Assembly (NCBI GenBank): GCA_020348305.1
Contig: CP070746.1
Location: forward strand, 2,507,788-2,538,085
Length of the DNA stretch: 30,298 bases
From: Desulfobacterales bacterium
Lineage (GTDB): Bacteria; Desulfobacterota; Desulfobacteria; Desulfobacterales; JAHEIW01
Direction of reading: 5' to 3'
The notes beneath the pieces are model-generated. The model made no database searches. It saw only the letters and a list, made by a program, of their open reading frames with translations, and was not told the origin of the DNA. This document shows positions 2,153 through 27,232 of the stretch, piece by piece (the stretch's first letter is position 1; the number at the start of each line of letters is the position of its first letter). The position numbers and the translations under genes are program-made.

Positions 2153-2199
2153 ATTTCACTGCTTTGAAATTCAATTCATCTCATTTCAATAGGTTATAG

Positions 2200-3694: not shown

Positions 3695-3742
3695 TTTTTT
3701 ACCAACACATTGTAAGTTAACAAGCCCTAAGCGCCTAACATA

Positions 3743-8355: not shown

Positions 8356-9228
8356 TCAGACCACTGCACTCACCGCATGAATAACACATGACGGCGATAC
8401 CATCAGCTTTCGCAATCCTAAAGCGTCCATAGAAATGCCCAGGCAAAGACCGAGTAATTGTGAAATATAGACAATCGGCATATCATAATGCCGGCCTTTT
8501 TCGTTGTTAATATCACTTTGTCGCATATCAAGGTTTGCCTGGCACAGGGGACATGCCACGGCGATGCAGTCCGCACCGGCATCTTTGGCCATACCGATGA
8601 TCGAATCAGCCAGATGGACAACGACATCCGTTCTTGTAAGAGCCAGACCGGCACCGCAGCATTCAACCTTGTGGGGCCAGTCGAGGCTTTCCCCGCCCAT
8701 CACGTTGATGAGGCGATCCATGGAAACCGGATTTTCCGGGTTGTCAAACTGGGTAATCTCTTGGGGGCGAACCAGCAGGCAGCCGTAGTAGCATGCCACT
8801 TTAAGTCCGCTTAATGAATGCGTGAATTTATCCTGAAGGAAATCGATTCCGACATCCTCCAGCAGTATTTCTATGAAGTGACGCACATTAACCGAACCGT
8901 CATAATCACGGCCGATGGTTGCACCGATTTGTTTGCGTATTTCGGTATGGTTGACAACTTCATGGTTTGTCATTTTCAGCCGGCTGAAGCATTCGGCACA
9001 GTTGACAACCATATCAAGACCCATCTCCATCGCCAGTATTAGGTTAAAAGCCGGGAGAGATGCGGCTAGGAGCCGATCCGTCTGGTGCGCCGGTGTAGCA
9101 CCGCAGCATGACCATCCATCGGGTTCGATGAGTTCAATACTGAGTCTGCGGGCAACCGCGATACTTGACGAGTGAAGGTCACGTGCGGTCGATTCGGCTG
9201 AACATCCAGGATAATACGCGTATTTCAT
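8356..9228 (-). CDS. hdrB: Heterodisulfide reductase subunit B-like (two CCG domains)
   Basis: 290-aa ORF with two Cys-rich CCG-type motifs (YYPGCS...WSCCGATP...VNCAECF and YYGCLLVRP...VECCGAGL...VACPLCQ). Confidence 0.85.
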   Translation of the reverse strand: MKYAYYPGCSAESTARDLHSSSIAVARRLSIELIEPDGWSCCGATPAHQTDRLLAASLPAFNLILAMEMGLDMVVNCAECFSRLKMTNHEVVNHTEIRKQIGATIGRDYDGSVNVRHFIEILLEDVGIDFLQDKFTHSLSGLKVACYYGCLLVRPQEITQFDNPENPVSMDRLINVMGGESLDWPHKVECCGAGLALTRTDVVVHLADSIIGMAKDAGADCIAVACPLCQANLDMRQSDINNEKGRHYDMPIVYISQLLGLCLGISMDALGLRKLMVSPSCVIHAVSAVV

Positions 9229-9239
9229 TTCCGGATTCC

Positions 9240-9794
9240 TTATTTATGGCTGACGCTGTCGAAAATTCTTTTGACAGTCTTTTTATCTGCCCCCCGGGGT
9301 GGCAAAATAGCGATTTTCCGCTTTTTCAGCATGGATGGAAACTTATCCATGTCATTCATAAACGTTAACGTACCCATTTTATAAGCGGCAATCATGACAA
9401 GATCATATGTACGGCCAAACATGTTCACCGTCTTTAAAAAAGCCCGGTTAAAAAGCGGAATGTCGCCTTTTGGTTTTGCCGCTTGCCTTTTTACTGCAAG
9501 AACCCGCAAGGCATCCATCACCGATGCCATGTCAATGCCCATCGGGCAACGTGCAAAACATGTCTCACATGAGGAACAGATCCATATGATATCACTGCTT
9601 AAGATTTCGTCTCCGGCCCCCAGCTGCAGTCGCCTAATAATTTCAGAAGGTGGGGATTTTGTATGCCCGGATACCGGACAGCCGCAGGAACATTTTTTAC
9701 ATTGATAACATTCGCTGAGATCAACGCCTGCCAGCTCTTCAACAGCACTGATAATATTTTTAACTGCTTTTCCTTTTTTTATCCGAATTGTCAT
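9240..9794 (-). CDS. hdrC: Heterodisulfide reductase subunit C-like (2x[4Fe-4S])
   Basis: 184-aa ORF with CYQCKKCSCGCP and CSSCETCFARCP ferredoxin-type motifs. There is a 34-bp gap to the upstream ORF and an 11-bp gap to hdrB. Confidence 0.8.
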   Translation of the reverse strand: MTIRIKKGKAVKNIISAVEELAGVDLSECYQCKKCSCGCPVSGHTKSPPSEIIRRLQLGAGDEILSSDIIWICSSCETCFARCPMGIDMASVMDALRVLAVKRQAAKPKGDIPLFNRAFLKTVNMFGRTYDLVMIAAYKMGTLTFMNDMDKFPSMLKKRKIAILPPRGADKKTVKRIFDSVSHK

Positions 9795-9828
9795 AGCGGT
9801 TTGGTTACCCTCTTATTCCACTTTCGAA

Positions 9829-12540
9829 TTAAAGAATATCCCCGACGGTTTCCTGCTCTTCAACTTCCACTTTTAAGGCAATGCGCTCTTCTTCTTTCAT
9901 CTCTGCGCCCACACTGGCAGGAACAACTTTTCGATAGACTTTTTCCGGAGGGAGCCTTTCCCCATTCACGGTCAATAGGTCATCGATTGTTATTTGAAAG
10001 AGTCTTTGATTTTCCATCAGATAAGGCAGAATTAATGCCCAGTCCTCCTCGTTCAGCGGCAGAAACATACCGCCGTTTAACTGCTCTTCGATAACATATC
10101 CATCAGGATCGCGTATAAAAATCGCTCCGCCGGAAGCCAGCGAAAACAGGTTGCTGCCCGGATACGGCTCAGACATTGAGACTAAATTGCCGTCATCATC
10201 GAATTGAACACCGTTTAATATAACAAAGCCGCCACCCCTCAGAGGGTCGCCGGCCATAAATGATTCGGCCAAAAAATCAAGACATGTGCCGTTAATAACT
10301 ACCCGTGGTCTGCCAACGGAATTGATCAGCGGCCGGCCGGCGGCATTACCCATTACATAAACCTCCCCCCCCTTGGCGCCGTATAAGAATGTCTGCCCGA
10401 CATCTCCATAAATAACCATTTTTCCGCTTTTGATGATCTGGCCGAGCTGGTCCTGGCCGTTGTTGTGCACCGTGATGGTCAGACCGTCAAGGCCGGAGCC
10501 GAGATAGTCCCCCGAGCTGCCGTACACATCTATGGTCACTTCCTCTGTTTGCGGTCCGAGACCACACCCCACGTATCTCTGGCCTGAACAACCAAAGCAG
10601 ATAAAATTCCGCCATCCTTTGCGATAGGCATCCACCAGGAGTGCTGCATCACATTCATCACCTTCGGGAGGAAACCGATCGGCATTTATAACAAGCGTGG
10701 TTTCTTTTGCCTGCGGGGCCCTTAAGAAGGCACGGGTATTATAATCGATTCGTCGAAACGCACTTTCGTCGCGGTCGTTTGCTTGAATTGAAGGCAGTTT
10801 GTCAAACAAATGATCAAGTTCGCTGCGCACAATATGAAGCATGTGGCTCCGTTTTTTAGTGCCGATAGCGTATCTGAGATCATTTAAAAAGGTCAGGGCA
10901 TTAATCGCCGTTGCAGTGTTCTTCACGTCCTTTGCCCGCTCCCGGATCGTCCTGCAGACCGTCTGAAAATCATCGAAGCCCCATCTGGGAATGTTGTCAC
11001 GCATATACTCAACGAGCGCCTGCCCACCACCTGTTGCATATATATGTTGTATACGCTTGTCAGCACCATTACCCGAGGCGGATGAGACGGATACTTCTTT
11101 TGTAAAATCAAACGATTCGGTCTGCTTGGGCATGGGTACCGGGACCCCGAATTTATCTGTACATGTCATCCGGTAATTTCCGCTGGAATCCTTTTCCAGA
11201 TTGAATATAAATGCTCCGCCATCTGTATGGCTGCCGCCGCGCGCATTCCAGTATCGGTCAGCAACAGGACATATGCGTTTATCTTCCTTGGACAGGCTTA
11301 ACAGGGTTGCATCGATGGCCTGTTTTTCCGATCCAATCAGGCCAACCTGAACCTCTCCTTCTGAAAAGGCAAATACCTGGGGGCGCAGCATTGCTGTGTC
11401 TGTAATTCCCAGAAGCTGGAATCTTTCTTTTCGCGGAATATTACGGGCAATAATAAAAAACCACGGGCCATCCGGCGAACCGTGTATATGTGTGGCTTGT
11501 ACGGCACGATAGACATTTTGTCTTTCTTCGGGGAGACGGTCAAAGTCGAGTTCACTCGTGGGTGCAAGAGCCTCAATAATATATTCCAGTGGATAATGAT
11601 ACGTCCGATCAAGCAGGTCAAACATCAGCGCGGATACCTCTGTGTCGGTAAGAAACTGCGGATATATGTGGCGCTGCCTAAGGTATTCGCAAACAGAATG
11701 ATAATTGGCAAAGTCACCGTTATGGACAAGCGCCATGTTGATGCCTGCAAAAGGATGCGCACCGCCCGGGTGCCAGACCCGGCCCTTGGTGGGAAAACGC
11801 TGATGTCCGAGCCACGCATGTGCACATAGGTCTTCAATCTTGTAATAGGTTACGATCGCCTCTGCATAGCCGACAACTTTCAGGATCATTATGTTTCGCC
11901 CATGGGAGAGGACAAATGCCCTCTGTTCGCCCAAGGAGGCGTAATATTCCTGATTCAGCCCAAAGCTGTTCTGGTTTACAAACTCATCTTCCGCCTCACG
12001 CCGTGGGAACTTTTCCAATTCATTTTGCGTTATGAAGGCATCGAGCAATTCCGGCTTGACACGAACAAAATAACGCCAAACATTCGGCGGTTTAACTTCA
12101 AGGCCCTTGACTGATTTCCAGTCGTCAACGGTATCTAATTCACTGGAAGCGGCCACATCAAAATTGCGTGTAATAAATTTATCTTCAAGTTCTTCCCGGA
12201 CCTCACGGTCAAGAAAGGCGATGTGAAGCATATAGTATTCATCCAAGATCTCACGGCTGACACCGAGTTGATCCGGGATAAACCCGACAGCTGCAACTCC
12301 GCCGCCCTTGCCATTACCCCTGTTGTGCATCAATCTTGATGGCTCATAAATGTGACGACCGGATACAGGTTCTGTGCAGCAAAAGCCAACAACACCGCAA
12401 CCGCCTTCTTCCTCGCTCTTTGACACCGTCACCGGAAACTTTAAACCATCAACTCGGCGTTTTTTGGAATTCAATAATTTTTGTATGAAATCCCTATGCA
12501 TTGTTTGCTTCACAACATCAGTGTAGTTAGCATGCTTCAA
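9829..12540 (-). CDS. Archaeal-type glutamate synthase fusion protein: class-II glutamine amidotransferase domain plus C-terminal GXGXG domain
   Basis: 903-aa ORF. The Ntn-type amidotransferase signature GGCGVVGF lies about 45 residues from the N-terminus, implying a propeptide. The C-terminal region GDYLGSGLDGLTITVHNNGQDQLGQ...GDVGQTFLYGAKGGEVYVMGNAAGRPLINSVGRPRVVINGTCLDFLAESFMAGDP matches the glutamate-synthase alpha-subunit GXGXG domain. No FMN-binding or central domain is present. Confidence 0.75.
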   Translation of the reverse strand: MKHANYTDVVKQTMHRDFIQKLLNSKKRRVDGLKFPVTVSKSEEEGGCGVVGFCCTEPVSGRHIYEPSRLMHNRGNGKGGGVAAVGFIPDQLGVSREILDEYYMLHIAFLDREVREELEDKFITRNFDVAASSELDTVDDWKSVKGLEVKPPNVWRYFVRVKPELLDAFITQNELEKFPRREAEDEFVNQNSFGLNQEYYASLGEQRAFVLSHGRNIMILKVVGYAEAIVTYYKIEDLCAHAWLGHQRFPTKGRVWHPGGAHPFAGINMALVHNGDFANYHSVCEYLRQRHIYPQFLTDTEVSALMFDLLDRTYHYPLEYIIEALAPTSELDFDRLPEERQNVYRAVQATHIHGSPDGPWFFIIARNIPRKERFQLLGITDTAMLRPQVFAFSEGEVQVGLIGSEKQAIDATLLSLSKEDKRICPVADRYWNARGGSHTDGGAFIFNLEKDSSGNYRMTCTDKFGVPVPMPKQTESFDFTKEVSVSSASGNGADKRIQHIYATGGGQALVEYMRDNIPRWGFDDFQTVCRTIRERAKDVKNTATAINALTFLNDLRYAIGTKKRSHMLHIVRSELDHLFDKLPSIQANDRDESAFRRIDYNTRAFLRAPQAKETTLVINADRFPPEGDECDAALLVDAYRKGWRNFICFGCSGQRYVGCGLGPQTEEVTIDVYGSSGDYLGSGLDGLTITVHNNGQDQLGQIIKSGKMVIYGDVGQTFLYGAKGGEVYVMGNAAGRPLINSVGRPRVVINGTCLDFLAESFMAGDPLRGGGFVILNGVQFDDDGNLVSMSEPYPGSNLFSLASGGAIFIRDPDGYVIEEQLNGGMFLPLNEEDWALILPYLMENQRLFQITIDDLLTVNGERLPPEKVYRKVVPASVGAEMKEEERIALKVEVEEQETVGDIL

Positions 12541-13622: not shown

Positions 13623-13967
13623 ATGAAATTGGTCGTAGCGATGATTCAGCCCCATAAATTGACTGATGTCAAGCAGGCATTATTTGACGAAGAGGTCTAT
13701 GCCATGACGGTCAGCAATGCCTTGGGATGTGGCAGCACGATGGGGTATATGGAAACCTACAGAGGTGTGAGGCAAGAAGTAAATCTTCTGAAAAAAGTGC
13801 GACTTGAAATTGCCGTCAATGATGATTTCGTTGAACGCATCATTGAGGCAATTATAAAAGGCGCACGAACGGGTAACATGGGAGAATGCCATATCCCAAA
13901 TTGCAAGAGAAAACCTCGAAGGGAGTTTGAGCGGAGTTTTGGCCACATTATCGCCGGAAGAAGCTAA
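13623..13967 (+). pseudogene. P-II (GlnB-like) signal-transduction protein, C-terminally truncated and running out of frame into a flotillin fragment
   Basis: The first roughly 85 aa align with P-II ([20 protein letters not shown]...TYRG...[30 protein letters not shown]). After TG the canonical B-loop/C-terminus (GDGKIFV...RIRTGE) is replaced by [26 protein letters not shown], which is the flotillin reading frame read out of frame. A GGAGG RBS and a sigma-54 promoter lie upstream. Confidence 0.6.
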
Positions 13968-14784
13968 CAGTAATCGGTTGGAGTTTGCCGAAAAAATCGT
14001 ACAACAGACCAGAGGTGATCTCGGTCGCCTGGGTTTAGTGCTGGATACGTTTAAAATCAAACATCTCTCTGATAATGAAGGCTATCTGGATGCCATCGGT
14101 CGCAAGAAAAATGCTGAAGTCAGAAAGGATGTCGAAATCGCGGAAACCAATGCGCAAGCTGAATCAAGACAAGTGTCCGCCGAGGCCAAGCGTATCGGAA
14201 ATGTGGCCGAAGCGGAGGCCAACGTAACCATTGTCGAAGCCGAAAACAAGCTACGGATAAAAAAAGCGGACCTGGATGCCGAAGCCCAACGCATAGAAGC
14301 CAAAGCAAAGGTTGCCGGCAACATCGCCAGGGTCGAAGAAGAACAGAAACTGGAAACCCAAAGAGTTGCCTTGAATCAGAGTAAGTATGAGGCTGACGTC
14401 GTGGTGCCGGCTCGGGCAGAAAAAGAAGCCATGGAATTGAAAGCCATTGGCGACGCATCCACTATCGTAGAAAACGGCAAAGCGACAGCAGAAGCAGTGA
14501 ATCTGATGCGTCAGGAATGGGAAAAAGAAGATACCCGGGAGCTTTTCTTAATCCAGCAACTTCCGGATATCCTCGATAAAGTCACCAGTGTGGTTTCCGA
14601 AAATCTTGCCATCGAAAAGGTTACGATACTGGACAGCGGCAACGGGCAGGGCATGCCCACCTATGTCAAAGGCATTGCCGGTTCTATCGTTGCTATTTTC
14701 GAGCAGATTAAAAACGCCACCGGCCTGGATGTACCTGAAATCCTGAGAGCCAAAGGAAAATCCACGGCTGAAATTACCGGATAG
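13858..14784 (+). pseudogene. Flotillin (FloT/YuaG-like SPFH family) lacking about the N-terminal 130 aa (TM segment plus first half of the SPFH domain)
   Basis: Frame 1 is open from 13858. The translation ...[83 protein letters not shown]... aligns with the middle of B. subtilis FloT (EAREVLEGHLRSILGSMTVEEIY...[37 protein letters not shown]). It is followed by an EA-rich coiled-coil and a C-terminal ...ILDSGNGQG... tail. There is no ATG; the track used TTG at 13927. Confidence 0.65.
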
Positions 14785-14798
14785 AAAGGGAATCGAAC

Positions 14799-16130
14799 AT
14801 GCTGAAGCTGAAATCAAAAAAGGATGTCCTAAAAGTTGTTAAGGACCAGGATGTAAGTTTTATTCAAATCTGGTTCACGGATATTTTGGGAATTTTAAAA
14901 TCATTTGCCATCACGCCTTCTGAACTGGAGGGTGCTCTCACCGAAGGCATGGGATTTGACGGCTCTTCGATTGAAGGGTTTGCCCGCATCGAAGAAAGTG
15001 ACATGATCGCCATGCCGGATCCTACGACATTTCAGTTTCTACCCTGGCGCCCCAAGGATCGCCCGGTGGCCCGCATGTTCTGCGATATTCTGACACCGGA
15101 TGGCTCCCACTATGCCGGTGATCCACGCTATGTATTTAAGCGGGCGCTTCAAAAGGCGGCTGATAAAGGCTACAAATTTTTCATCGGACCTGAACTGGAA
15201 TTTTTCTATTTTGAAAGCAGTGAAAATCCAAAATTTATTGATATGGGAGGCTATTTTGATTCACGACCGCTTGATCTGGCCAGTGACTTGCGCAGAGACA
15301 CGATATTTATGCTCCAGCGCATGGGGATCCAGGTTGAATACAGCCACCATGAGGTGGCACCCAGCCAGCATGAAATCGATTTGCGATTTGATGAAGGTCT
15401 TAAAATGGCGGATAAGACCATGACCTATCGCGTGGTTGTCAAAGAGGTTGCCCGCAAACAAGGCGTCTATGCCACCTTTATGCCCAAGCCCATCTTCGGA
15501 GAAAACGGCAGTGGCATGCATGTTCACCAATCGCTTTTTCGCGGTGATATGAACGCCTTTTATGATCCATCAGATAAATACCATTTATCCGAAATGGCCA
15601 AATCCTATATTGCCGGCATCATGCGACACGCGCGGGAAATTGTCGGGGTTACCAATCAATGGGTGAACTCTTACAAGCGTCTGGTGCCAGGCTATGAAGC
15701 GCCCGTATATATCTCCTGGGCGCGGCGCAACCGCTCGACAATGATACGGGTACCCATGTACAAGCCCGGCAAGGAAGTTGCCACTCGCATTGAGTTTCGT
15801 TCACCGGATCCGGCCTGCAATCCTTATCTGGCTTTTGCAGTTATGCTGATGGCCGGTTTAAAAGGAGTTGAACAGAACTACGCGCTGCCGGATCCGATCG
15901 AAGAGGATATTTACGAGATGGATGAAGCGGCAAGGGAAAAGGCTGGCATTGTTTCGTTGCCGGGAAGTCTTTTTGAAGCCATTCAGGAGCTGGAACAAAG
16001 CGAGGTGGTTCGAGAAACCCTTGGGGACCACATCTTCCAGCAATTCATTGCCAACAAGAAAATCGAATGGAACCGCTTCCGAACGCACGTCAGCAGGTAC
16101 GAGATCGAAAACTATCTTCCCAAGCTTTAA
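14799..16130 (+). CDS. glnA: Glutamine synthetase type I-alpha (443 aa)
   Basis: Canonical GS motifs: [51 protein letters not shown]...EFRSPDPACNPYLAF. It has no adenylylation-loop insertion. Confidence 0.9.
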   Translation: MLKLKSKKDVLKVVKDQDVSFIQIWFTDILGILKSFAITPSELEGALTEGMGFDGSSIEGFARIEESDMIAMPDPTTFQFLPWRPKDRPVARMFCDILTPDGSHYAGDPRYVFKRALQKAADKGYKFFIGPELEFFYFESSENPKFIDMGGYFDSRPLDLASDLRRDTIFMLQRMGIQVEYSHHEVAPSQHEIDLRFDEGLKMADKTMTYRVVVKEVARKQGVYATFMPKPIFGENGSGMHVHQSLFRGDMNAFYDPSDKYHLSEMAKSYIAGIMRHAREIVGVTNQWVNSYKRLVPGYEAPVYISWARRNRSTMIRVPMYKPGKEVATRIEFRSPDPACNPYLAFAVMLMAGLKGVEQNYALPDPIEEDIYEMDEAAREKAGIVSLPGSLFEAIQELEQSEVVRETLGDHIFQQFIANKKIEWNRFRTHVSRYEIENYLPKL

Positions 16131-16343
16131 AAAGGAGACGATATCACTGGCCTTGGAATTATTCGCCCAGAATAAATTCTCGCCGGGCACTACCGGCGAC
16201 GGCCTTTTCTTCGATTGATATAAAGTGATATTTTCATGGGCGTCCATTTCGTATCTCTCGTGTTTTTCTTATTAAAATCAATCTATCGGATAATTTCGTT
16301 GCTTTTTTTAGGAAAACTTTTTAGGAGTGACATTTCATATTGA

Positions 16344-16712
<369 letters not shown>

Positions 16713-16769
16713 AATATAAAACATTTAGATACTTTTTCAAGAAAAGAAAATAATAGGGAGGAAAAACGT

Positions 16770-18182
16770 ATGACACCCAAAGAAGTCTTAGATATGGCTA
16801 AGGAAAACGGAGCCAAGGTGGTTGACTTGCGCTTTATGGATTTTCCGGGCGTCTGGCAGCACTTTAGTGTGCCGATCAACGAATTGGATGAATCGAGTTT
16901 TGAAGATGGGTATGGGTTTGACGGTTCCAGTATTCGTGGCTGGCAGCCGATTCACGCCAGCGATATGCTGGTAGTCCCCGATGCGGATACCGCCAAAATG
17001 GACCCATTTTATGAAGCGCCAACGCTGGTGTTAATCGGCAACATCGTTGATCCGGTAACCCGGGAGCCTTACACCCGGGACCCGAGAAATATTGCTCAAA
17101 AAGCCGAAGCCTATCTAAAAAGCACGGGTATTGGTGATATCGCATATTTCGGCCCTGAGCCCGAATTTTTCATCTTTGACGACATTCGCTTTGAGTCCAC
17201 CCGGTTTGGCGCCTTTTATGAAATTGACTCCATTGAAGGGGTCTGGAACTCCGGTCGTGAGGAAATGCCCAACCTGGGCTATAAACCGCGACACAAAGAA
17301 GGATATTTCCCGGTTCCACCCATGGACAAGTTTCAGGATCTGAGAACGGAGATGGTTTTGACCTTGGAAAATCTGGGGATCGCAACCGAAGCCCAGCATC
17401 ATGAAGTCGCCACCGCCGGCCAGGCAGAAATCGATATGCGTTTTATGCCGCTGCTCCAGATGGCCGATCAACTCATGTGGTTCAAATATGTGCTTAAAAA
17501 TGTCGCCTATCGCAATAACCATACAGTGACCTTCATGCCCAAACCGATTTTCGAAGACAACGGAACCGGCATGCACACCCATATCAGCATTTGGAAAGAA
17601 GACCAGCCGCTGTTTGCCGGCGATAAATATGCCGGTCTTTCCCAGGAGGCATTGTATGCCATCGGCGGCATTTTAACCCACTGCAAGGCGCTATGCGCCT
17701 TTACCAACCCGACCACCAATTCCTATAAACGATTGGTGCCGGGTTTTGAAGCACCGGTGAACTTGGCCTACTCCAGCCGCAACCGCAGTGCGGCGATTCG
17801 AATCCCAATGTATTCCCCGTCACCGAAAACAAAACGCATTGAGTTCCGCACCCCGGATCCTTCCTGCAACGGCTATTTAGCATTTTCAGCCATGCTGATG
17901 GCGGTCATCGATGGTATCCGGAACAAGATCGATCCCGGCGATCCCCTGGATAAAAACATTTACAACCTGCCGCCCGAAGAACTGGCTGAAATTCCATCGG
18001 CGCCCGGTTCCTTGGAAGAGGCGCTGGCCTCTTTAAAAGATGACCAGGAATTCCTTTTAAAAGGCGATGTCTTTACCTCGGATGCCATCGATATGTGGAT
18101 CGAATACAAAATCGAAAATGAGGTCAACGACGTCAAATTGCGACCCCACCCGCATGAGTTCTTTCTGTATTTTGATATTTAA
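16770..18182 (+). CDS. glnA: Glutamine synthetase type I-beta (470 aa) with adenylylation-site motif
   Basis: GS motifs [65 protein letters not shown], plus a NIYNLPPEE adenylylation-type Tyr segment. The RBS is GGGAGG. Confidence 0.9.
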
Positions 18183-18241
18183 TTGCTCCTCAAAATAACA
18201 GCAGTCCGCTGATAGTAGTGGGAAAAGGAAAAACCGATAAG

Positions 18242-19307
18242 GGGACGTTGTTGACTGAATTGACTTAGTTTCTCGCCCGTTTTATGATCTTTGATATGGC
18301 CGAGGTGGAAACGCCCAGTCGCCGAGCAACTTCGGCTAAAGCAACCCCTTGGTTCTTTACCAACCCAATCGCAATCCGAGCTCGAATCCCTGATACCTCT
18401 TTGCGCCGGCTGCCGGATCTTAATTCTTCAATTGATACTTTTCCATTTTTGCACAATTTGGCTATCAATTCATCAATTTTTTGATGATGCTCCTTCACCG
18501 GCAGTTGATATTTGATTTGGCTTTCAGCTTCTTTTATGACCCGCTTGACAAATTCACCACTGCCTAAAATCCGCTCATCACTCAACTCGCGATCTGCTGA
18601 GCGGCGCAACGCTTTCACCGCCGACCAACCACCCAAGGACCGTATTAATCCCCCACCAACAAGGTCCGGGCGACGCCCTTCATTTATTCCCTTTTGAACA
18701 TATTTGCGATAAGCTTTTTTAGCCTCGGCCTGCTTGGGCCCAAACCATTTCAATACATAGTCTCGATTCTGCCAGTCATTTTTAACGCGACCCATTAAAA
18801 CGCTGTGACCACACCAGCGGTAGCGGTCTAATTGTGCTAAAGTTTTAACTAATTTAGCCCGCAAAGGATTTAAATGGATATATCGTACCAATTCTTTAAA
18901 ATAGGCATCTTCTTCACAGATAATCGACTTATAGCGGTTTTGAAATAAATGACCCCAGCGTCGATGACGCCGATTGTAAAAAATCGCATAGCCCGTCAGC
19001 AACCGTCGCATAAATCCCGAAAGCCCATACTCAGAGCTGCGTAAAAGAATGTGCGCATGATTGCTCATCAGTGCCCAGGCATATATGGCGGTTTTGGTAC
19101 CTACGGCAAGCTTTGCCAAGCGCCTTACAAAATCTTTTCGATCCGTCACATCATTGACAATTTTGCCTCTTTCTATTCCTCGTACCATCACATGATGCAA
19201 TGTTCCAGGGGCATCCAATCTGGCTCGCCGCGGCATCTTCCCCCTCCTCCTTTAAAATTCTAACCATTTGCATAACATAAATTAGTCAACTCAGTCAACA
19301 ACGTCCC
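18242..19307 (-). mobile_element. Compact IS-like/REPtron-like element: Y1 transposase gene bracketed by about 26-bp imperfect inverted repeats
   Basis: Left repeat 18242-18268 is GGGACGTTGTTGACTGAATTGACTTAG. The reverse complement of 19282-19307 is GGGACGTTGTTGACTGAGTTGACTAA (24/26 identical). Each repeat contains a tandem TTGACT-N3-TTGACT. The left repeat overlaps the transposase stop codon. Confidence 0.55.
18265..19236 (-). CDS. Y1 HUH transposase (IS200-like/RAYT-like) with C-terminal HTH (DnaA-C-like) domain
   Basis: 323-aa ORF with a HUH motif (ALMSNHAHILL) and a catalytic Tyr context (GHLFQNRYKS), typical of the IS200/IS605 TnpA and REP-associated tyrosine transposase superfamily. 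The C-terminal ...LVKNQGVALAEVARRLGVSTSAISKIIKRA is an HTH. Confidence 0.75.
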   Translation of the reverse strand: MPRRARLDAPGTLHHVMVRGIERGKIVNDVTDRKDFVRRLAKLAVGTKTAIYAWALMSNHAHILLRSSEYGLSGFMRRLLTGYAIFYNRRHRRWGHLFQNRYKSIICEEDAYFKELVRYIHLNPLRAKLVKTLAQLDRYRWCGHSVLMGRVKNDWQNRDYVLKWFGPKQAEAKKAYRKYVQKGINEGRRPDLVGGGLIRSLGGWSAVKALRRSADRELSDERILGSGEFVKRVIKEAESQIKYQLPVKEHHQKIDELIAKLCKNGKVSIEELRSGSRRKEVSGIRARIAIGLVKNQGVALAEVARRLGVSTSAISKIIKRARN

Positions 19308-19351
19308 TAAACAATTCCCTACACAGCTACACAGCCCTAAGACAGATTCCC

Positions 19352-19450
19352 TATTTCATCGAATACATGTATAATCACAAGCTACTTCACTCCGCTATTG
19401 GTTATCGTCCTCAATGTGAATTTGAGATGATGCTGGAATCAACTCCAAAT
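19352..19450 (+). pseudogene. Remnant of the 3' end of a DDE (IS3/rve-type) transposase gene
   Basis: Frame-2 translation ...YFIEYMYNHKLLHSAIGYRPQCEFEMMLESTPNPCQNTLIT* carries the conserved C-terminal tail of integrase-core transposases (YN..R.HSalGY.sP.eFE). The upstream reading frame degenerates immediately at the IS-like element boundary. Confidence 0.4.
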
Positions 19451-19546
19451 CCCTGTCAAAACACTCTGATCACATAGCTGTGATCTTTGCAGTTTTATGG
19501 GGTCATTCCAACCTGCCCTTTAATGTGCGACCCTTATTTTTCGTTC

Positions 19547-20155
19547 TTATTTCCATGACTCGTCTTTATACAGCCCATTTCTGCTTATTTCTAGCGCTGA
19601 TTTTGCTAAATCCATATCTTTCTTAAGTTCAGAGTTCGGATTTAAATTAAATGCCTTTCTGTAAGCTTCGTAAGATTTAGCATAGTCCCCAATTTTGTAA
19701 TAGCAGTATGCCACATTTTCCAATATTAAAGAATCATCTCTTTCTAAATTTAAACTTTTTTCAAAATACGATATAGCCTCACGGTATTCATTTCTTATTA
19801 CGTTAATACGTCCCAAATAGTCTATCGCAGCTTTGTTATTAGGATTAGTTTCGAGAACCTTTCTAAAATATTCTTGCGATTCAATATACCGTTGTGCGTT
19901 GAATGAGGCCTTGGCAAGACCATACATAATCTTTATGTTATTGAAACCATATTGCATTAACTTTTTGTATTCATCTATTGCCTCTCTATTTTTACCTTCA
20001 GATCTGTATAACTCGCCCAACAAAAAACGAGCGTGATAATCCTCAGGTTTATGATTTATCCTCTTTATACAGAACTCTTTAACAGAATGTATTGAAAAAT
20101 TAAATCTAGGGACGAGATATATCAACAACCGGATATAAAAAATATATTTTTTCAT
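19547..20155 (-). CDS. Secreted or membrane-anchored TPR-repeat protein; candidate immunity protein for the upstream RHS toxin
   Basis: 202-aa ORF, very AT-rich. The N-terminus is hydrophobic (MKKYIFYIRLLIYLVP), followed by at least four TPR-like repeats (...AIDEYKKLMQYGFNN..., ...YFRKVLETNPNNKAAIDYLG..., ...AISYFEKSLNLERDD..., ...YEAYRKAFNLNPNS...). It starts 14 bp after the RHS gene stop on the same strand. Confidence 0.7.
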   Translation of the reverse strand: MKKYIFYIRLLIYLVPRFNFSIHSVKEFCIKRINHKPEDYHARFLLGELYRSEGKNREAIDEYKKLMQYGFNNIKIMYGLAKASFNAQRYIESQEYFRKVLETNPNNKAAIDYLGRINVIRNEYREAISYFEKSLNLERDDSLILENVAYCYYKIGDYAKSYEAYRKAFNLNPNSELKKDMDLAKSALEISRNGLYKDESWK

Positions 20156-20169
20156 ATTCAGTAAAACCT

Positions 20170-23100
20170 CTAGGGATTATGAAAAGCTGAAAATATCTTC
20201 GCTGCAAACTTCTTAGCTTGCCACTTAAACTTTTTCCATTTCGACCACTTGTCATAATCATTTGGCTCTTTCATAAAATCTGGATCATTAGGATCATTTG
20301 AGGGATAACTCCAACCAGGCATTCCTGGTGCATCCCATAAGGGACCATATTCATCTCCCATTCCTCTAGATTCATATGCTGGGCAGGCACTACTGTCCTC
20401 ACCACGAGCCATCAAGATATCGAATAGAATATCTTCAGCCTCATCCTCACTGGGGATATAAGGAATATCAGGTAAATTTACGTCAGGAAGATCAGCACCA
20501 GTTGCGTACCCTAAAGCTCCTATAAGTAGCGGTGCACCATATAAAAATGCTCGAAGAGCAGCCTGTCCTCCAAAAAGCCCTCTTGGATCAACCGCATTAA
20601 TTGGATCATTTAAACAATACCCATAAAGATCCGTATCACCTCCAGCAAAAAAAATAGGATCTTTGGCGGTCCATCGCCCTGTGTCGGGATCATAGTCGCG
20701 GAAACCAAACCTAACTAGGCCTGTATCCCGGTCGTCAAGCCCTCCTGCAAATCCAAAAGGCACCTCAATTGTCGGATTGGTATCATTTATTATATTGCCA
20801 AATGAATCATACTCAATTAATTCTACCACATTGCCGGAAGCATCTGCAACAACCCGCAACGAGCCCACCTGGTCATAAGTAAGAAAATAGGTTGTCCCAC
20901 CGCTTTTCATAGCCACCGGCATGCGATCATCAGCATACTCGAAGCGCATCAGTAGATTATTAGAACCATCATAGACGGCCAGCAGACGCGTTAGACCCTC
21001 CCACAGGTATTTCTCGACAACAACTCCATCTACCTTCTTGGCGATTCGTCTTCCCAGTGGATCATGGAGATATTCGATAACGCGACCATCGGACAAATCA
21101 ACGCTTAGTAGCTCTCCACGAGAAGAATATTTATAGTTGGTCACGTCATCTCCATCTTTCTTAGTAGTTAAAAAGCCGTCTAGATTATAAGAATAGCTCA
21201 TAGATCCAGCCGATAAGAGATGATCCCCAGCCGAATAACTAAAGCTCCTTACAGAAAATCCTCTCAGCGTGTTTGTTTCAGAGATTCGTGTTCCACTGAG
21301 ATCATAGCCATACGCTTCAACTAAATTACCGTCTTTGGTTACAGTCAAGAGTCTTCCCATGGAGTCATATGTATAAGCATAATTTGTGGTAACACTACCA
21401 ACCGTCTCGGTTTTGTTTATGATTCTTCCGTTATCATCGCGGGTTAATATCCACGTGGTTACATTTTGGCTACCAACCGTAAAGTTCTGCCCTTCCACCT
21501 CACCGTAACCATTGAATGCGCGAGAAAGACTCAACGCACCGCCGGTAACCGCTTCAGGCAATCCATTCTGAGTATTACGAGAAATTGAATAGGAACCTGC
21601 AGCGGTTAATAGCCCGTCATTATCATAATCATAACTAACGGTGCCTCCCGCATAGGTAAAACTGGAAACATCAAAGTCGTTATTGTAGGTGTAATTTAAT
21701 GATTGATTCAACGTGCCGCTCAACATCTCCAGTGTGACCAGCTTTCCATCATAGCCGTAAGTAATTGATTCGGTGTCTTTTGTGATTGATTCAACTTTTG
21801 TTCCACACAGATAGGTAAAATCAATGTTGCCTTCCGGTGTCTGAATTTGAGAAAGTCTAGTCTTGTCCCAGATGTTGAATATCTGTTTGCCGGAAGGGAA
21901 GTTTGTCTGGATCAAACGCCTGTCCTTATCATACACATAACTGTAACTCCCGCTCAATGGCGTCGTATAAGCGCGATATAGATTGACGCTGTTAAATCCA
22001 AAACCGTGGTTGATATCCACCGGATTAGTCAACACCGTCATATTGCCGTTTTTGTCATAAGTAAATCCCACATAGCCATCGTCCGGGCGGCTTATCCCGG
22101 TTATCCGCCCAACCGGATCATAGCTGTAAGTTGTGGTGTAATTCTCTGGATTGGTGATGGATTCAGGAAATCCCTGTGCATTATAAGCAAATGTGGTTTG
22201 CCTGGCATTGGTGCTGATGGAGGTCAACCTTCCCCTTGAATCGTAGCCATATGCTGTGGAATGAAGGCCAGGCACGCTAACACTTTCGACTAGCAAAGTA
22301 GCAGGATCGTAAAGCGATGTTATTGACCTACCCTCAGGTGAAGTGACTAATTTCCGCGCCTGAAGGGTATTATGTTCAAGTGTCGTGGTTTTGCCATTGA
22401 TCGTTACCGTCTCTGTGATCATGTCCGGTGCTTCATCAGCGTCCGTATCTTGATAAGCCTTATCCCTCAGCGTCACCCATTCTAGTCCTGAAGGGGCACT
22501 TTCTCTCATTTCTTTGACGTATTTATACTTATACTCATAATCCACATCGTATTTGAATTCAAGCTCCATTCCACAGGGCAAGGACTTATTTACGGTTAAT
22601 CCATCTGCTGATTGAGTAAATAATGTTTGAGCTCCCGTGGGATCTGTTATGGTTGAGCTGTAGGCACCGGTGGAATCTGTGCGGTCCAGATAGGAATTAA
22701 GGTTGCCCTCCGCTGTTAGAACCTGGATTAATATATCTCCATTCTCATTTACAATTCTGTTGTAATTCCAATGACCTCCTTCCTCGTCATATACGTCAAT
22801 CAATCCACTGTATTCGAAGCGGTTGCCTTCGGGTTCCACCTTTGCAGTTATCAGACCACCCTCGGCATACTCAAAAGTGTAGTAACTGTCATCGGGATAC
22901 GTGATCCAGGTAAGGTGATTGTTTGCATCAATTGTCAAACTGGTATAAATTCCATCCGGAGAAATGATTGAGGTCGGCGAACCGCTACTATCCCTGGAAA
23001 TGATGGTTTGGTTGCCGAATCGGTCGGTAATCGAAGCCAATCTTCCATCCGAGTCATATCCAAAATCATAAAGGGTTACCCCGGTATCAAGGTCAATGGT

Positions 23101-26100
23101 TGTCTTGTGACGTCCGGAACTTGACGCGATGTAGCCCAGGCCGTTCTCCTCAGCAAATGTTAGATCCCCCTCGCTCGTTATGTTGGCGAAAGCTGAAGGA
23201 GGGGCAACCTTCCGGATACGTCCATTATTATCAGCTATGTAAATGTTGTTTAGGGCATCCACTGCTACGTCCATAATCGTATTGAATAAGGCTTCGGTGG
23301 CGGGTCCACCGTCGCCGCCGTAAGTAAATTCTGAGTCGGATTTGCCGGCCACCGTGCTGATTATTCCTTTCGTATTAACTTTCCTCACTACACGATTCTT
23401 AAAACCTGCTATATATAGATCTCCTGCCGAATCAACGGCTAAACCACGAGGGTTATAAATACTCGCTTCAGTGGCAGGTCCGCCATCTCCACTGTAGCCC
23501 GGAGTGCCGTTTCCAGCTACGGTCGTGATGATACCACTCTTATCCACTTTACGAACGCGGTGGTTGTTGACGTCGGCAATATATAGATTGCCCTCCAAGT
23601 CGACAGCCATGCCTAATGGATATTTAAATTGGGCGTCAGTGGCAAACCCGCCATCTCCGCTATAACCATTATTTCCATTGCCAGCCACAGTGGTTATGAT
23701 GCCGCCTGTGTCCACTTTCCGAATGCACTGATTCCCTGAATCGGAAATATACAGATTTCCCGACGCATCCACAGCAACGTCATACGGATGGTTAAGTGAT
23801 GCTTCGGTAGCAGATCCTCCATCTCCACTATAGGCCGGAGTGGCAGTTCCAGCCACGGTGGTGATAATGCCACTCTTATCCACCTTACGAACGCGGTTGT
23901 TATAGTAATCCGCTATGTAAATATTACCAGAGGCGTCTGCGGTAACCCCGGTTGGATAGTATAGTGACGCTTCATTTGCAGGACCACCATCTCCACTATA
24001 GCCCGGAGTGCTGGTTCCAGCTACGGTAGTGATGATGCCGCCACTATCCACCTTGCGAATACAGTGATTACCGAAATCTGCTATATAAAGGTTGCCTTCA
24101 GCATCCAAATAAACACTGTAGGGTTGTGTAATCTGAGCTTCAGTAGCAGATCCGCCATCACCGCTATAGCCATTCGTTCCGTTTCCGGCCATGGTGTCAA
24201 CGATGGCAGTGTTATTTCTTGTTTGCGTCCCGTCTCCCTTGTGCAAGGTAGATAAGTCCATGAGGTTCACTTGATGATGGGCGGACAATGTCCAGCCCTC
24301 GGCGATAACACCACCTCCTTGAGCGGAAATAGGAGGTATTGTTATATCAACATCGTTTCGCTTCCATGAAGTTATCTCCATCCTCGCTATAACTGCGGTT
24401 TCATCTCTACCTGCCTGGGCAAATGCTCTGATCAATTCCCGAGGCTCTAAATAGACTATATCGTACACGAAGCCTATTTCCACATGTGCTGTTGTAGAAC
24501 CAATAACACGCCTTCCTAAATGGTCCTTTCCATCCCATCCAAATTCAGCCGACTGGTTTGGAAGGGGGTCTATTATTTGTTCGTAAACACGGCCTGCCAC
24601 CTCGACTCTTGCGATGATCCGTTTCAGACTTTCGGGAACTGTTTCTCCGCTTGCAGGAACCGTGATTCTATAAAGGTAGCCTGGCACTCTGTTAATTGCA
24701 TAATGAAGGGTAAGATCTGTGCCGGGAATGGGGATGTCCTCGTGGAAAACTCTGCTGCGTGCTTCTACAAAAGAGCCAAGTCGTTTTTGGCAATCATCTT
24801 CTTCATTTTTTTGCTCATCAATTGCAACTTCGCCATTTGGATTAGGAGGAATAGAATCTGTTGGCGGGCCAAAAGGCCAGTTGATATCCCAAGGTGTGAA
24901 ATGGGTGATGGCCACTCGCCAGAAGGAAAAACCGGGTGCGTATCTTCCGGGATCATAAAGTCCGGTCACCTCATCGTTAAAAAAACCATTGCCATTGAGA
25001 TCATCCGGCTGATCATCGCCATCTGCGTCCAGAGCGTCTACGCTACCGTCAGCGTCCGTGTCGAGAAGTTTTACCACAACACCATTGTCAGCAGGCACCC
25101 AAACACCTCTATCTCGATCGTAATAACCAACAGGAGCCGCCATGCCCACATCAAAACCCAAGAAATTATCTACCCAGATAATAACAGGCTTTTCAAACCT
25201 TATTCGTTGTGCCCCATCTACGCTGAGTTCCACGCAATAGGTGTATGCGGAGTTAGGCGGCAACTTGGCCGGCATGGACTGCTCGGTGGCGAATTCGGTG
25301 GCACGGGCCGTAATAGTAGTAAGTTCTTGGATGTCATTTCCATTTTCATCCACTAAATAGGCCCGGTTGTCCCCTGTAAATACTATAGAGGCCGAGCGAC
25401 TGCCGAACTCATCAGTCACTGGGGTGCTCTGGTGAGTGACCACCGTGTCCGGATTGCCGTCAAATGTCAGTATGGTGGCAGCCGGATCTTCGGCGATCAT
25501 CTGAATTGTCTCTGGAATCGCAATGTCGTTCCAGGTGACGTAGACCTTCCGCTGGCCCGGGACCAAGCCATCTTTTTGATACACAACGGTCATCGTTGCC
25601 CCACCTTCAACCGGAATGGAAAACCGACCTTCTGCATCGGTGGTGACTGTGCCGTATTCCGGATGACTATGTATGGTTATGGCAACATCTGCTATGGGAG
25701 TTTCTGCTAAATCCTGAACCAAACCGGTGATAACCGAAAACCGTTTTGGATCATATTCTTCAACTGTTGCATCCGGCGGTACAAGATCTTCATACTGTTG
25801 CCCGAAAGATCCCTCAGGTTGGAGCTCGGGATTGCCGGCCACATGAACCGTAACCCTGTCACCGATTGTGCCATAAGGACCACTTGCAGTGATGCTATAG
25901 ACAGTGGTTTGAGTGGGCGATACAGCATACGTACCATTTGCTTGTACGATACCGATGCCGGGCTCGATGAAGCAAAAATCAGCATTGGTGGAATTCCAGG
26001 CAAGGTTAGCTGTCTCTCCAACTGAGATAGTCTTAGGATTCGCAGCGATGCTGACGGTTATGGGCGCCTCGCCGAAACCGCTATTTTCGTCCACCTCGAC

Positions 26101-26949: not shown

Positions 26950-27232
26950 GATGAACCTCCAGCAACTTTTAATTAACTTTGAACTAATGCGGTATATGAT
27001 GTCAAACAGCCTAAAGAAGAAACAGGGATAAGTTGACATAATGCCAATTGATTTGGGTAGGTTTGGACTGAAAAAATAAAGATCTTTTGGAGTAATTTAA
27101 GAAAGACCTGTCATGACTGTTTGCGATCACAACACCCCCTCCGCGAGACCTTGAAGGGTATTGACAGCATGAACTCCGTAGTTAGCTTTGTTTTAGTTAA
27201 TGGAGCGTTGGATGAACCCTTCCAGCGTCCAT

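What the first reader, a model, noticed from the sequence alone, without database searches (positions are those of the whole stretch)
18242..19307. Minimal Y1-transposase element bounded by 26-bp inverted repeats that contain tandem TTGACT boxes (REPtron-like)
Classical IS200/IS605 elements lack terminal inverted repeats. Here the HUH/Y1 gene is bracketed by near-identical inverted 26-mers (24/26 identical), each containing TTGACT-N3-TTGACT, and the transposase carries an extra C-terminal HTH. This resembles REP-RAYT-REP units, with the boxes possibly serving as HTH binding sites. Searching the genome for the 26-mer could reveal a dispersed REP-like family.
Basis: seen in the sequence. Interest (0 to 1): 0.5.

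Follow-up and report, generated by a model that had tools for sequence, protein, structure and literature searches.

The report
Tyrosine-transposase gene framed by inverted repeats
This is a compact 1.07-kb selfish DNA unit of a known but never experimentally studied kind (a "TIRtron"), and its 30-base end sequence also occurs, mostly without the gene, in many sediment and groundwater bacteria.

Summary
Window 18242-19307 holds one 323-aa gene (18265-19236, minus strand). It is bracketed by 29-nt inverted repeats that match at 26 of 29 positions, and each repeat carries TTGACT-N3-TTGACT. The protein has an N-terminal HUH/Y1 nuclease domain whose best structural match is E. coli TnpA-REP (RAYT, PDB 4er8). 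Its C-terminal domain is homologous to DnaA domain IV.

This architecture is already named: TIRtron/TIRYT (Di Nocera 2013), equivalent to TnpA-REP subclass 2.1 (Quentin 2018). "REPtron-like" is therefore close but imprecise, because a single repeat is not a palindrome and cannot fold.

About 70% of evaluable copies are gene-less singletons. Some are 77-250 bp inverted doublets that fold into long hairpins.

Full units are an invariant 1065-1066 bp, show no target duplications, occur nested in one another, and have several different flanks between strains.

The proposed mechanism is inferred: HUH chemistry, recruited by the DnaA-like domain binding the tandem 9-bp boxes. This is a new member of a known kind, of moderate interest.

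The parts
18242..18270 (+). Terminal inverted repeat on the gene's 3' side (core): GGGACGTTGTTGACTGAATTGACTTAGTT. It contains the gene's stop codon.
   Evidence: The same core flanks homologous genes in L001, L003, L008, L009, L188, L246 and others.
19279..19307 (-). Terminal inverted repeat on the gene's 5' side (core): GGGACGTTGTTGACTGAGTTGACTAATTT when read on the minus strand.
   Evidence: Strain comparison puts the flank break at -8 to -1 outside GGGACG.
18251..18265 (+). Two tandem TTGACT boxes with a 9-bp period in the left repeat. Candidate binding sites for the DnaA-domain-IV-like domain (inferred).
   Evidence: In the logo of 125 copies, the positions not fixed by the search pattern are also conserved.
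19284..19298 (-). Two tandem TTGACT boxes with a 9-bp period in the right repeat.
18265..19236 (-). TIRYT gene, 323 aa, including the stop codon.
18742..19236 (-). HUH/Y1 nuclease domain (about aa 1-165), RAYT-like fold. HUH motif at 19051-19059 and catalytic Tyr119 at 18880-18882.
   Evidence: Pfam Y1_Tnp. NCBIfam REP_Tyr_transpos scores 61 bits, below its cut-off of 80. The AF2 model has pLDDT 88. Foldseek's top hit is 4er8_A, E 2.4e-6, TMt 0.73, over 166 columns.
18487..18741 (-). Helical linker region (about aa 166-250). It includes two low-confidence loops, and no function was assigned.
   Evidence: pLDDT is below 50 at aa 196-202 and 242-246.
18268..18486 (-). C-terminal DNA-binding domain (about aa 251-323), homologous to DnaA domain IV.
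Evidence: The family profile hits DnaA structures 2hcb/1l8q at E 1.5e-6, and 1j1v at 1.4e-4. Weak Pfam Bac_DnaA_C, Sigma70_r4 and HTH_23 hits.
19241..19252 (-). Shine-Dalgarno-like GGAGGAGGGG stretch a few bases upstream of the ATG.
   Evidence: Read directly from the sequence.
19308..19318 (-). Possible outer extension of the 5' end (GGAATTGTTTA). Uncertain.
   Evidence: Related strains carry AGAATATA(TA)n at this position, with different DNA beyond it. Other subfamilies extend the inverted repeat by 5-12 A/T-rich nt.

Best explanation
**What it is.** The feature is a TIRtron: a 1066-bp unit made of one gene and two 29-nt terminal inverted repeats. The gene encodes a TIRYT, a RAYT-like HUH/Y1 single-strand DNA nuclease-ligase fused to a DnaA-domain-IV-like DNA-binding domain.

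**Proposed mechanism.**
- The C-terminal domain recognises the tandem 9-bp TTGACTNNN boxes in the repeat. It could do so on duplex DNA, or on the duplex stem that forms when two inverted copies pair in single-stranded DNA.
- This places the HUH/Tyr119 active site near the conserved outer GGGGACG end.
- The active site then cuts and rejoins one strand without making target-site duplications.
- The same protein would act in trans on gene-less copies of the repeat. These include singletons, hairpin-forming doublets and internal-deletion derivatives, and together they form a dispersed REP/MITE-like population.

**Shown here.** The anatomy, the protein folds and homologies, the intact catalytic residues, the dispersal of the repeat, the absence of target duplications, the fixed length, and the nested and polymorphic copies.

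**Inferred.** Binding of the boxes by the DnaA-like domain, the cleavage position, single-strand chemistry, and action in trans.

**Confidence.** I am about 0.9 sure of the identity as a TIRtron/TIRYT unit and about 0.4 sure of the mechanism. The single figure given is a compromise between the two.
For: **Anatomy**
- Repeats, boxes and gene.

**Protein**
- Y1_Tnp scores above its cut-off.
- The AF2 model has pLDDT 88. Its best PDB match is E. coli TnpA-REP bound to a REP hairpin (4er8_A, E 2.4e-6), ahead of the ISDra2 and IS608 transposases.
- The family profile hits DnaA domain IV at E 1.5e-6 and 4er8 at E 0.003.
- H60, H62 and Y119 are conserved in at least 90% of 83 relatives that share 38-82% identity with the window protein.

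**Same design in relatives**
- The GGGACG...CGTCCC span is 1065-1066 bp in at least 10 copies with 74-99% protein identity. None has a direct target duplication.
- A relative with 35% identity (L001 2937-3911: Y1_Tnp plus Bac_DnaA_C above its cut-off) has its own, different inverted repeats.

**Evidence of mobility**
- Copies lie inside other TIRYT genes (L003; L252).
- Four different flanks lie beyond the 5' repeat in strains that share the glnA flank.
- L175 is a 132-bp internal-deletion derivative that keeps the 5' UTR of the L188-type element of the same MAG.
- Many homologues sit on contigs of 1.0-1.3 kb, and repeats often lie at contig ends.

**Dispersal of the repeat**
- More than 119 genome loci were found, against about 9 expected by chance.
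- 105 of 132 copies have no gene remnant within 1.2 kb.
- 83 of 116 evaluable copies have no inverted partner.
- The conserved unit is about 30 nt with sharp edges.
- Only 8 of about 96 singletons lie inside predicted ORFs.
- The metagenome scan gave the same picture: 69 singletons, 7 doublets, 6 full genes and 16 partial genes among 126 copies.
- Doublets fold into 22-28 bp stems with z-scores of -5 to -11.

**Literature**
- PMC3733652 and PMC6006769 describe this class from sequence surveys.
Against: - No experiment exists for any TIRYT in the searched literature, so every mechanistic step is inferred.
- The repeat begins GGGGACGT. This matches only 6 of 8 positions of the GGGGWSAS motif reported for many TIRYT repeats.
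- Quentin et al. noted that TIRYT repeats do not resemble DnaA boxes and questioned whether the C-terminal domain recognises them.
- Known Y1 enzymes recognise hairpins in single-stranded DNA, but a single repeat here has no structure.
- Most copies are singletons, which a two-ended cut-and-paste model does not readily produce.
- The truncated terminal copies outside many repeats do not share one breakpoint. They therefore do not define a cleavage site.
- The window's own genome could not be scanned. All strains recovered at the glnA site carry the element, so no empty site was seen.
- Some of the different flanks could be assembly chimeras across a repeat.
Confidence: 0.7

Rival explanations
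1. It is a domesticated, immobile RAYT-type gene. A single vertically inherited copy maintains a population of short gene-less repeats for the host, as proposed for group 2/3 RAYTs and REPINs. On this view the 1066-bp unit itself no longer moves.
For: - About 70% of repeat copies are gene-less singletons, mostly between genes.
- The element is present at the same glnA site in every related strain recovered.
- The protein's fold is closest to E. coli TnpA-REP.
Against: - Full units occur inside other TIRYT genes (L003, L252).
- Contigs carry two or three family members (L001, L003, L167).
- Four different flanks lie at the 5' repeat.
- Internal-deletion derivatives lie next to or in the same MAG as full copies (L143, L175/L188).
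- Homologues pile up on contigs about one unit long.
- Hosts span several phyla with a near-identical repeat, which argues for horizontal spread.
Confidence: 0.15
2. It is an ordinary insertion sequence whose inverted repeats are bound and cut as duplex DNA. The HUH domain would be used differently or not at all. The many gene-less repeats would be decay products: solo ends left by deletions and recombination.
For: - It has the classic IS layout of repeat, gene, repeat, with a fixed length.
- A duplex-DNA-binding domain is present.
- Gene remnants lie next to 14 of 132 repeats.
Against: - No target-site duplications were seen at any of about 30 paired ends.
- There is no DDE or serine recombinase domain. 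The HUH and Tyr residues are conserved across the family, which argues that they are used.
- Singletons keep a perfectly conserved 30-nt unit while everything around it is unrelated. Simple decay would not leave this pattern.
Confidence: 0.1
3. The 30-nt motif is primarily a host regulatory site, such as a promoter -35 array or an operator for an HTH protein. The element would merely carry it or have captured it.
For: - TTGACT resembles the sigma-70 -35 hexamer.
- One promoter-like match starts in the left repeat (18260, 10 of 12 positions).
- The motif lies mostly between genes.
Against: - Singletons show no orientation bias towards neighbouring genes: 27 against 36 on the inward side and 35 against 39 on the outward side.
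- Promoter-like matches in the region are not above the shuffled expectation: 4 found, 2.4 expected.
- The motif occurs as inverted pairs at exact element ends, as hairpin doublets, and with stuttered terminal copies. These are features of mobile DNA.
Confidence: 0.05

Closest known systems
TIRtrons / TIRYT (Di Nocera, De Gregorio, Rocco 2013, BMC Genomics 14:522, PMC3733652), equivalent to TnpA-REP subclass 2.1 (Quentin et al. 2018, BMC Genomics 19:475, PMC6006769)
   Same: - A RAYT-like HUH/Y1 gene flanked by terminal inverted repeats instead of REPs.
- A long protein of about 320 aa with a C-terminal Bac_DnaA_C/HTH_23/HTH_28-like domain.
- The repeat starts with a G-run.
- In some genomes the repeats also occur as single, dimeric or grouped copies away from the gene.
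   Different: - The repeat begins GGGGACGT, 6 of 8 positions of the reported GGGGWSAS motif, and carries two tandem TTGACT boxes.
- This particular repeat is conserved almost base for base across Thermodesulfobacteriota, Binatia, Nitrospirota, NC10 and Acidobacteriota MAGs.
- The hosts here are uncultured sediment and groundwater lineages. I could not see the 26 published examples (their Figure 9 is not held in the library), so I could not check whether any comes from such hosts.
REPtron / REPIN system: E. coli TnpA-REP (RAYT, PDB 4er8) with REP/BIME sequences
   Same: - Best structural match of the N-terminal 165 aa.
- Catalytic Tyr in a YI-x-x-NP context. That this context is typical of RAYTs is from my own knowledge, not tested here.
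- The gene is bracketed by inverted copies of a short repeat that is also dispersed between genes.
- Inverted doublets fold into long hairpins, as REPINs do.
   Different: - A single repeat is not a palindrome and has no GTAG tag.
- The protein is twice as long and has a duplex-DNA-binding domain.
- It scores below NCBIfam's RAYT cut-off (61 against 80 bits).
- The gene-plus-repeat unit itself behaves as multi-copy mobile DNA.
IS200/IS605 family (IS608, ISDra2 TnpA)
   Same: - HUH/Y1 fold (E about 3e-4).
- Pfam Y1_Tnp hit.
- No target-site duplication.
   Different: - Those elements have no terminal inverted repeats. They have different subterminal hairpins at the left and right ends.
- Their TnpA is about 130-155 aa, with no HTH domain.
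- No hairpins are present at the ends here.
DnaA domain IV bound to 9-bp DnaA boxes (PDB 1j1v, 3pvp)
   Same: - The C-terminal 70-80 aa are homologous by profile (E 1.5e-6 to 1e-3).
- They superpose at 1.4-1.6 A.
- The candidate sites are tandem 9-bp units, the same length as a DnaA box.
   Different: - The boxes read TTGACTNNN, not TTATCCACA.
- From the alignment printed and my recollection of the E. coli DnaA sequence, the recognition-helix residues differ: GVSTSAISK here against DHTTVLHA in DnaA.
- There is no AAA+ domain.
MITEs derived from insertion sequences
   Same: - Short gene-less derivatives bounded by the parent's inverted repeats.
- L175 (132 bp) and L143 3562-3823 (262 bp) keep pieces of the parent's UTR or coding ends.
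   Different: - No target duplications.
- Most gene-less copies are single repeats rather than pairs.

Membership tests
TIRtron / TIRYT (Di Nocera 2013) | RAYT-like HUH/Y1 gene flanked by terminal inverted repeats rather than REPs | tested here: met
   Inverted repeats of 29 nt at 90%. Y1_Tnp hit. 4er8 is the best fold match. Single arms are unstructured.
TIRtron / TIRYT (Di Nocera 2013) | Repeat shares the GGGGWSAS motif (reported for many but not all TIRYT repeats) | tested here: inconclusive
   The window repeat with its preceding G reads GGGGACGT, matching 6 of 8 positions. A 35%-identical neighbour in L001 reads GGGGTCAA, matching 7 of 8.
TIRtron / TIRYT (Di Nocera 2013) | Repeat may form a family of single, dimeric or grouped copies elsewhere in genomes | tested here: met
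   Shown in other genomes and metagenomes. The window's own genome could not be tested.
TnpA-REP subclass 2.1 (Quentin 2018) | Long protein with a C-terminal Bac_DnaA_C / HTH_23 / HTH_28-like domain | tested here: met
   323 aa. Weak Pfam hits at aa 254-322. The profile hits DnaA domain IV at E 1.5e-6. Foldseek matches 1j1v and 3pvp.
TnpA-REP subclass 2.1 (Quentin 2018) | No REP-like palindromes next to the gene | tested here: met
TnpA-REP subclass 2.1 (Quentin 2018) | Placement inside that clade of their phylogeny | not tested
RAYT / REPtron | HUH motif and catalytic Tyr in a RAYT-type fold | tested here: met
   H60-A-H62 and Y119 are present. 4er8_A matches at E 2.4e-6, TMt 0.73.
RAYT / REPtron | Scores above the curated NCBIfam equivalog cut-off (NF047646) | tested here: not met
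   61.3 bits against a cut-off of 80.
RAYT / REPtron | Flanked by REPs: 20-40 nt imperfect palindromes with a GTAG-type tag | tested here: not met
   Each arm folds with dG 0 and scores no better than shuffles. No GTAG tag in the sequence.
RAYT / REPtron | Typically one vertically inherited copy per genome | tested here: inconclusive
   Nested copies, several family members per contig and four flanks argue against this. No complete host genome could be examined.
IS200/IS605 | Y1 HUH transposase | tested here: met
IS200/IS605 | Different subterminal hairpins at the two ends, and no terminal inverted repeats | tested here: not met
IS200/IS605 | No target-site duplication | tested here: met
Classical DDE-type insertion sequences | DDE transposase and fixed-length target duplications | tested here: not met
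   No DDE domain. No duplications at about 30 paired ends.

The most novel reading that the evidence does not exclude
TIRYT units may be a true, currently active insertion-sequence family that ISfinder-type classifications lack, as far as I know. They would combine duplex-DNA end recognition with HUH single-strand chemistry. End recognition would use a DnaA-domain-IV module reading tandem 9-bp iterons. The family would also seed a 30-nt gene-less repeat that is kept almost base-perfect across several bacterial phyla. That would make it a cross-phylum counterpart of species-specific REP/REPIN populations. The stuttered partial end copies seen outside many repeats would be footprints of its joining reaction.
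Probability: 0.35. Interest if true: 0.65.

Novelty: new member of a known kind. Interest (0 to 1): 0.4.

Why it matters
- **An untested class.** TIRYTs are the least understood branch of the HUH/Y1 transposase superfamily. The literature I could search holds only two survey papers on them and no experiment.
- **A simple test case.** This locus is a clean, intact, minimal example. It has clear candidate protein-binding boxes, and its repeat turns out to be widely dispersed.
- **If the inferred mechanism holds.** It would show how an enzyme that acts on single-stranded DNA can be targeted by a duplex-binding module borrowed from the replication initiator. It would also extend the REP/RAYT idea of a gene that maintains a population of short repeats. 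The extension is to non-palindromic repeats shared across phyla.
- **Practical consequence.** These 1.07-kb units and their 30-nt relics break assemblies of Desulfobacterales-type MAGs. They are annotated loosely as "RayT" or "transposase".

Tried and rejected
- **Chance inverted repeat.** Rejected by shuffles.
- **Known RNA family in 17900-19800.** No match at E up to 1.
- **Direct PDB sequence hits.** The single protein and the shallow alignment A1 gave nothing meaningful. Only the diverse alignment A2 worked.
- **First AF2 model.** Built from 33 close homologues, it was poor (pLDDT 50). Its N-terminal part was not used; only its C-terminal match to DnaA domain IV is cited.
- **Search for an empty site.**
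  - Exact-protein look-ups of the TIRYT and of glnA found nothing.
  - The TPR neighbour led only to the same arrangement.
  - The glnB look-up found related strains, but all carry the element.
  - A metagenome scan with a 27-mer from the glnA-downstream spacer found nothing. So there is no filled-versus-empty comparison.
- **14-mer scan of viral contigs.** It gave only single chance-type matches and was uninformative.
- **Promoter reading of the TTGACT boxes.** Promoter-like sites are not enriched, and singletons show no orientation bias.
- **Hidden partners or hidden gene remnants for singletons.** Not found within 1.2-1.4 kb, and indistinguishable from the outward control.
- **Chance or coding matches set aside.** Three Clostridia hits (L157, L166, L237) and a few hits inside long ORFs (for example L197, L244), consistent with the roughly 9 chance hits expected.
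- **A unique cleavage point from truncated end copies.** Rejected because the breakpoints vary.
Full report
**1. The observation**

The sequence at 18242-19307 is as described.
- The repeat finder ranks the pair 18242-18270 / 19279-19307 as the best inverted repeat of the region: 29 nt, 90% complementary.
No shuffle produced a match.
- TTGACT-N3-TTGACT occurs only inside these two arms.
- The single long ORF between them (18265-19236, minus strand, 323 aa) hits Pfam Y1_Tnp above its cut-off. Several HTH models hit aa 254-322.
- NCBIfam's RAYT model scores 61 bits, below its cut-off of 80.
- The unit is very compact. The ATG lies 71 nt from the outer end of one repeat, behind a GGAGG-rich ribosome-binding site. 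The stop codon lies inside the other repeat.

**2. The protein**

A shallow alignment gave a poor model. An alignment of 83 relatives sharing 38-82% identity with the window protein gave a confident model with pLDDT 88.
- *N-terminal domain.* The best PDB match is the E. coli REP-associated tyrosine transposase bound to a REP hairpin (4er8_A, E 2.4e-6, TMt 0.73 over the whole 165-aa chain). The ISDra2 and IS608 transposases follow at E about 3e-4.
- *C-terminal domain.* The family profile hits DnaA domain IV in solved structures (2hcb/1l8q at E 1.5e-6; the DnaA-box complex 1j1v at 1.4e-4). It also hits 4er8 at E 0.003. The C-terminal 70 aa superpose on 1j1v and 3pvp at 1.4-1.6 A.
- *Catalytic residues.* H60-A-H62 and Tyr119 (RYIHLNP) are conserved in at least 90% of the 83 relatives.
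The exhaustive search found 1,215 clusters at 50% identity with E up to 1e-30, and 14,833 with E up to 1e-10.

**3. What is already known**

Two papers describe this architecture.
- Di Nocera et al. (PMC3733652) named RAYT-like genes flanked by terminal inverted repeats "TIRYT" and the units "TIRtrons". They noted a GGGGWSAS motif in many of the repeats. They also noted that some repeats form families of single, dimeric or grouped copies.
- Quentin et al. (PMC6006769) placed 20 of the 26 TIRYTs in TnpA-REP subclass 2.1. That subclass is defined by a C-terminal Bac_DnaA_C/HTH_23/HTH_28-like domain and the absence of REPs. They questioned whether that domain reads the repeats.
- No other paper in the searchable library mentions TIRYT or TIRtron, and I found no experiments.

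The precise name is TIRtron, because the arms are not palindromes: each folds with dG 0.

**4. Relatives carry the same design**

- Homologous genes in L001, L003, L008, L009, L188, L246 and others are bracketed by the same core (A)ATAGGGGACGTTGTTGAC.
- The distance between the outer GGGACG ends is 1065-1066 bp in at least ten copies that differ by up to about 25% in protein sequence.
- None of about 30 paired ends shows a direct target duplication. In several copies the inverted repeat continues outward for 5-12 A/T-rich bases.
- A second family member on L001 has 35% identity and scores Y1_Tnp plus Bac_DnaA_C above their cut-offs. It has different repeats, GGGGTCAAATCTACGATTGACC, which fit GGGGWSAS at 7 of 8 positions.

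**5. Signs of mobility**

- In L003 the unit sits inside another TIRYT gene.
- At the window's own locus, contigs from related strains share the glnA flank but show four different sequences beyond the 5' repeat. These are the window's IS3 remnant, two unrelated flanks, and in L252 a fragment of another TIRYT gene. The break lies within 8 nt of GGGACG. Some of these flanks may be assembly joins across a repeat. Even so, they would show several copies in different contexts.
- L143 carries a full unit next to a 262-bp derivative that keeps only the coding ends. L175 is a 132-bp derivative that keeps the 5' UTR of the L188-type unit from the same MAG.
- Many homologues lie on contigs about one unit long, and repeats often sit at contig ends.
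- No empty site was found.

**6. The proposed test: is the repeat dispersed?**

*Genome scan.* I scanned one genome per species with GGACGTTGTTGACTNNNTTRAC. I estimated about 9 chance hits from 1.2e12 positions.
- Most blocks come from Desulfobacterales, Syntrophales and Syntrophobacterales MAGs. Others come from Binatia, Nitrospirota, NC10, Acidobacteriota and further groups.
- Positions the pattern did not fix are also conserved. The logo reads t-a-G-GGGACGTTGTTGACT-A-n-G-TTGAC-T-W-A-C-T, and information falls to zero beyond -3 and +28.
- Pairwise similarity between copies starts at -1 or 0 and ends at a median of +27.
- Of 132 copies, 105 have no TIRYT coding remnant within 1.2 kb, 14 have partial remnants and 13 flank full genes.
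- 83 of 116 evaluable copies have no inverted partner within 1.4 kb, the same as an outward control.
- At least eleven are inverted doublets 77-250 bp apart. The seven doublets folded form 22-28 bp hairpins with z-scores of -5 to -11.
- Only 8 of about 96 singletons lie inside predicted ORFs. They show no orientation bias towards neighbouring genes.
- Several MAGs have 3-6 loci even in this truncated list.

It gave 69 singletons, 7 doublets, 6 full genes, 16 partial genes and 28 copies at contig ends.

I could not scan the window's own genome. The window itself holds only the two arms.

**7. Mechanism (inferred)**

The domain pairing suggests a division of labour.
- The DnaA-domain-IV-like module would read the tandem TTGACTNNN units. 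These are 9 bp long, like DnaA boxes. Some relatives have a third box (L003, L265, L293).
- The HUH/Tyr119 site would then cut and rejoin one strand near the conserved outer end, leaving no duplication.
- Two inverted copies can pair in single-stranded DNA, as the doublets do. That would give the enzyme a duplex stem to bind while it works on single strands, much as RAYT uses a REP hairpin.

This model does not readily explain why singletons dominate. It also rests on no experiment.

**8. An unexplained signature**

Just outside many repeats lie truncated tandem copies of the terminus.
- One example is gttttaggggacg|gttttagGGGACG in L154.
- Another is ggggtcaagttt|gggggtcaattt|GGGGGTCAAATC... 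in the divergent L001 element.
- 13 of 139 copies have GGGAC within 45 nt outward, against 2 in control windows.
- The breakpoints vary: after 4-9 nt, after the first box, or after the whole repeat. They therefore do not fix a cleavage site.
- They could be footprints of the joining reaction, of insertion into existing repeats, or of slippage.

**9. Verdict**

It has the right enzyme family, and the prediction of a dispersed repeat was right. However, the class is already described as TIRtron/TIRYT, and the repeats are not REPs.
- This is a new member of a known kind.
- It is of moderate interest because the class is experimentally untouched. This repeat is also unusually conserved across phyla and mostly gene-less.

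Noticed in passing
window 19334-19477 (+): Immediately beyond the 5' repeat lies the last ~45 codons of an IS3-family transposase (..YNHKLLHSAIGYRPQCEFE..). It has no upstream part. NCBIfam transpos_IS3 matches profile positions 340-369 of 369, at E 0.049 only. The TIRtron, or a rearrangement at its end, appears to have truncated an IS3 element.
   Followed up: partly
window 19319-19334 (+): A tandem 8-mer, CTACACAG x2, lies between the repeat and the IS3 remnant. The related strain L004 has a similar stuttered TGTGTAG(AAT)GTATAGAAT at the same place.
   Followed up: partly
L154 ~5190-5215; L182; L153; L136; L003 3996-4012; L342; L355; L317; L001 2861-2905: Truncated tandem copies of the outer terminus lie just outside many repeats, in subfamilies as distant as 35% protein identity. 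13 of 139 copies show this, against 2 controls. The breakpoints vary and the cause is unexplained.
   Followed up: partly
L178, L332, L286 (~1830-2111), L355, L311, L329: A ~285-nt gene-less unit recurs at 86-92% identity (pairwise blastn) in different contigs. It starts with AACTCG plus the repeat, has a repeat at one end only, and its far end was not characterised.
   Followed up: partly
L163 137-250 and 2079-2190; also L191, L235: A ~120-nt unit that starts with the repeat occurs as direct copies on both sides of an AbiEii toxin / DUF6088 (AbiEi-like) gene pair.
   Followed up: partly
L291, L374, L317 (inward of the repeat): In one singleton subfamily the repeat is followed inward by an open frame encoding an HTH-like stretch (..LTNQQIGEKFGLTYSAVSRRVGVF..). 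This is the opposite orientation to the TIRYT 3' end, and stop codons inside the repeat cut it off. It may be a rearranged remnant.
   Followed up: no
L157, L166, L237: Three Clostridia hits share AGGACGTTGTTGACTT.GTTAAC inside a long conserved ORF. They are homologous to each other over 500 nt. These are coding matches, not repeats.
   Followed up: yes
window 13623-18182 (+): There are two consecutive PII / glutamine synthetase modules: a short PII, Band_7, a 443-aa GlnA, then a 112-aa PII and a 470-aa GlnA. The same order is seen in L251-L254. The TIRtron sits directly after the second glnA in every strain recovered.
   Followed up: partly
window 19547-27039 (-): On the other side of the element lie a 2289-aa protein and a 202-aa TPR protein. 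From reading its translation, the large protein has NHL-like and RHS/YD-like repeats and a divergent C-terminal tip. It was not analysed with tools. L009 also has an RHS gene near a TIRtron.
   Followed up: no
window 744-12540 (-): The left part of the window encodes MetF-type methylenetetrahydrofolate reductase, MvhD/FlpD, HdrBC-like CCG and Fe-S proteins, and a GXGXG glutamate-synthase-like protein. I read this as ordinary chromosomal metabolism, so the element would sit in a chromosome rather than in an obvious island.
   Followed up: partly
L186, L196, L201, L212, L247 (Olavius Delta 1 symbiont, CACVKW01): Five contigs of this assembly carry the repeat. Several are 106-247 bp long and consist of little more than the repeat and the gene's 3' end. 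This suggests many copies that break the assembly.
   Followed up: no
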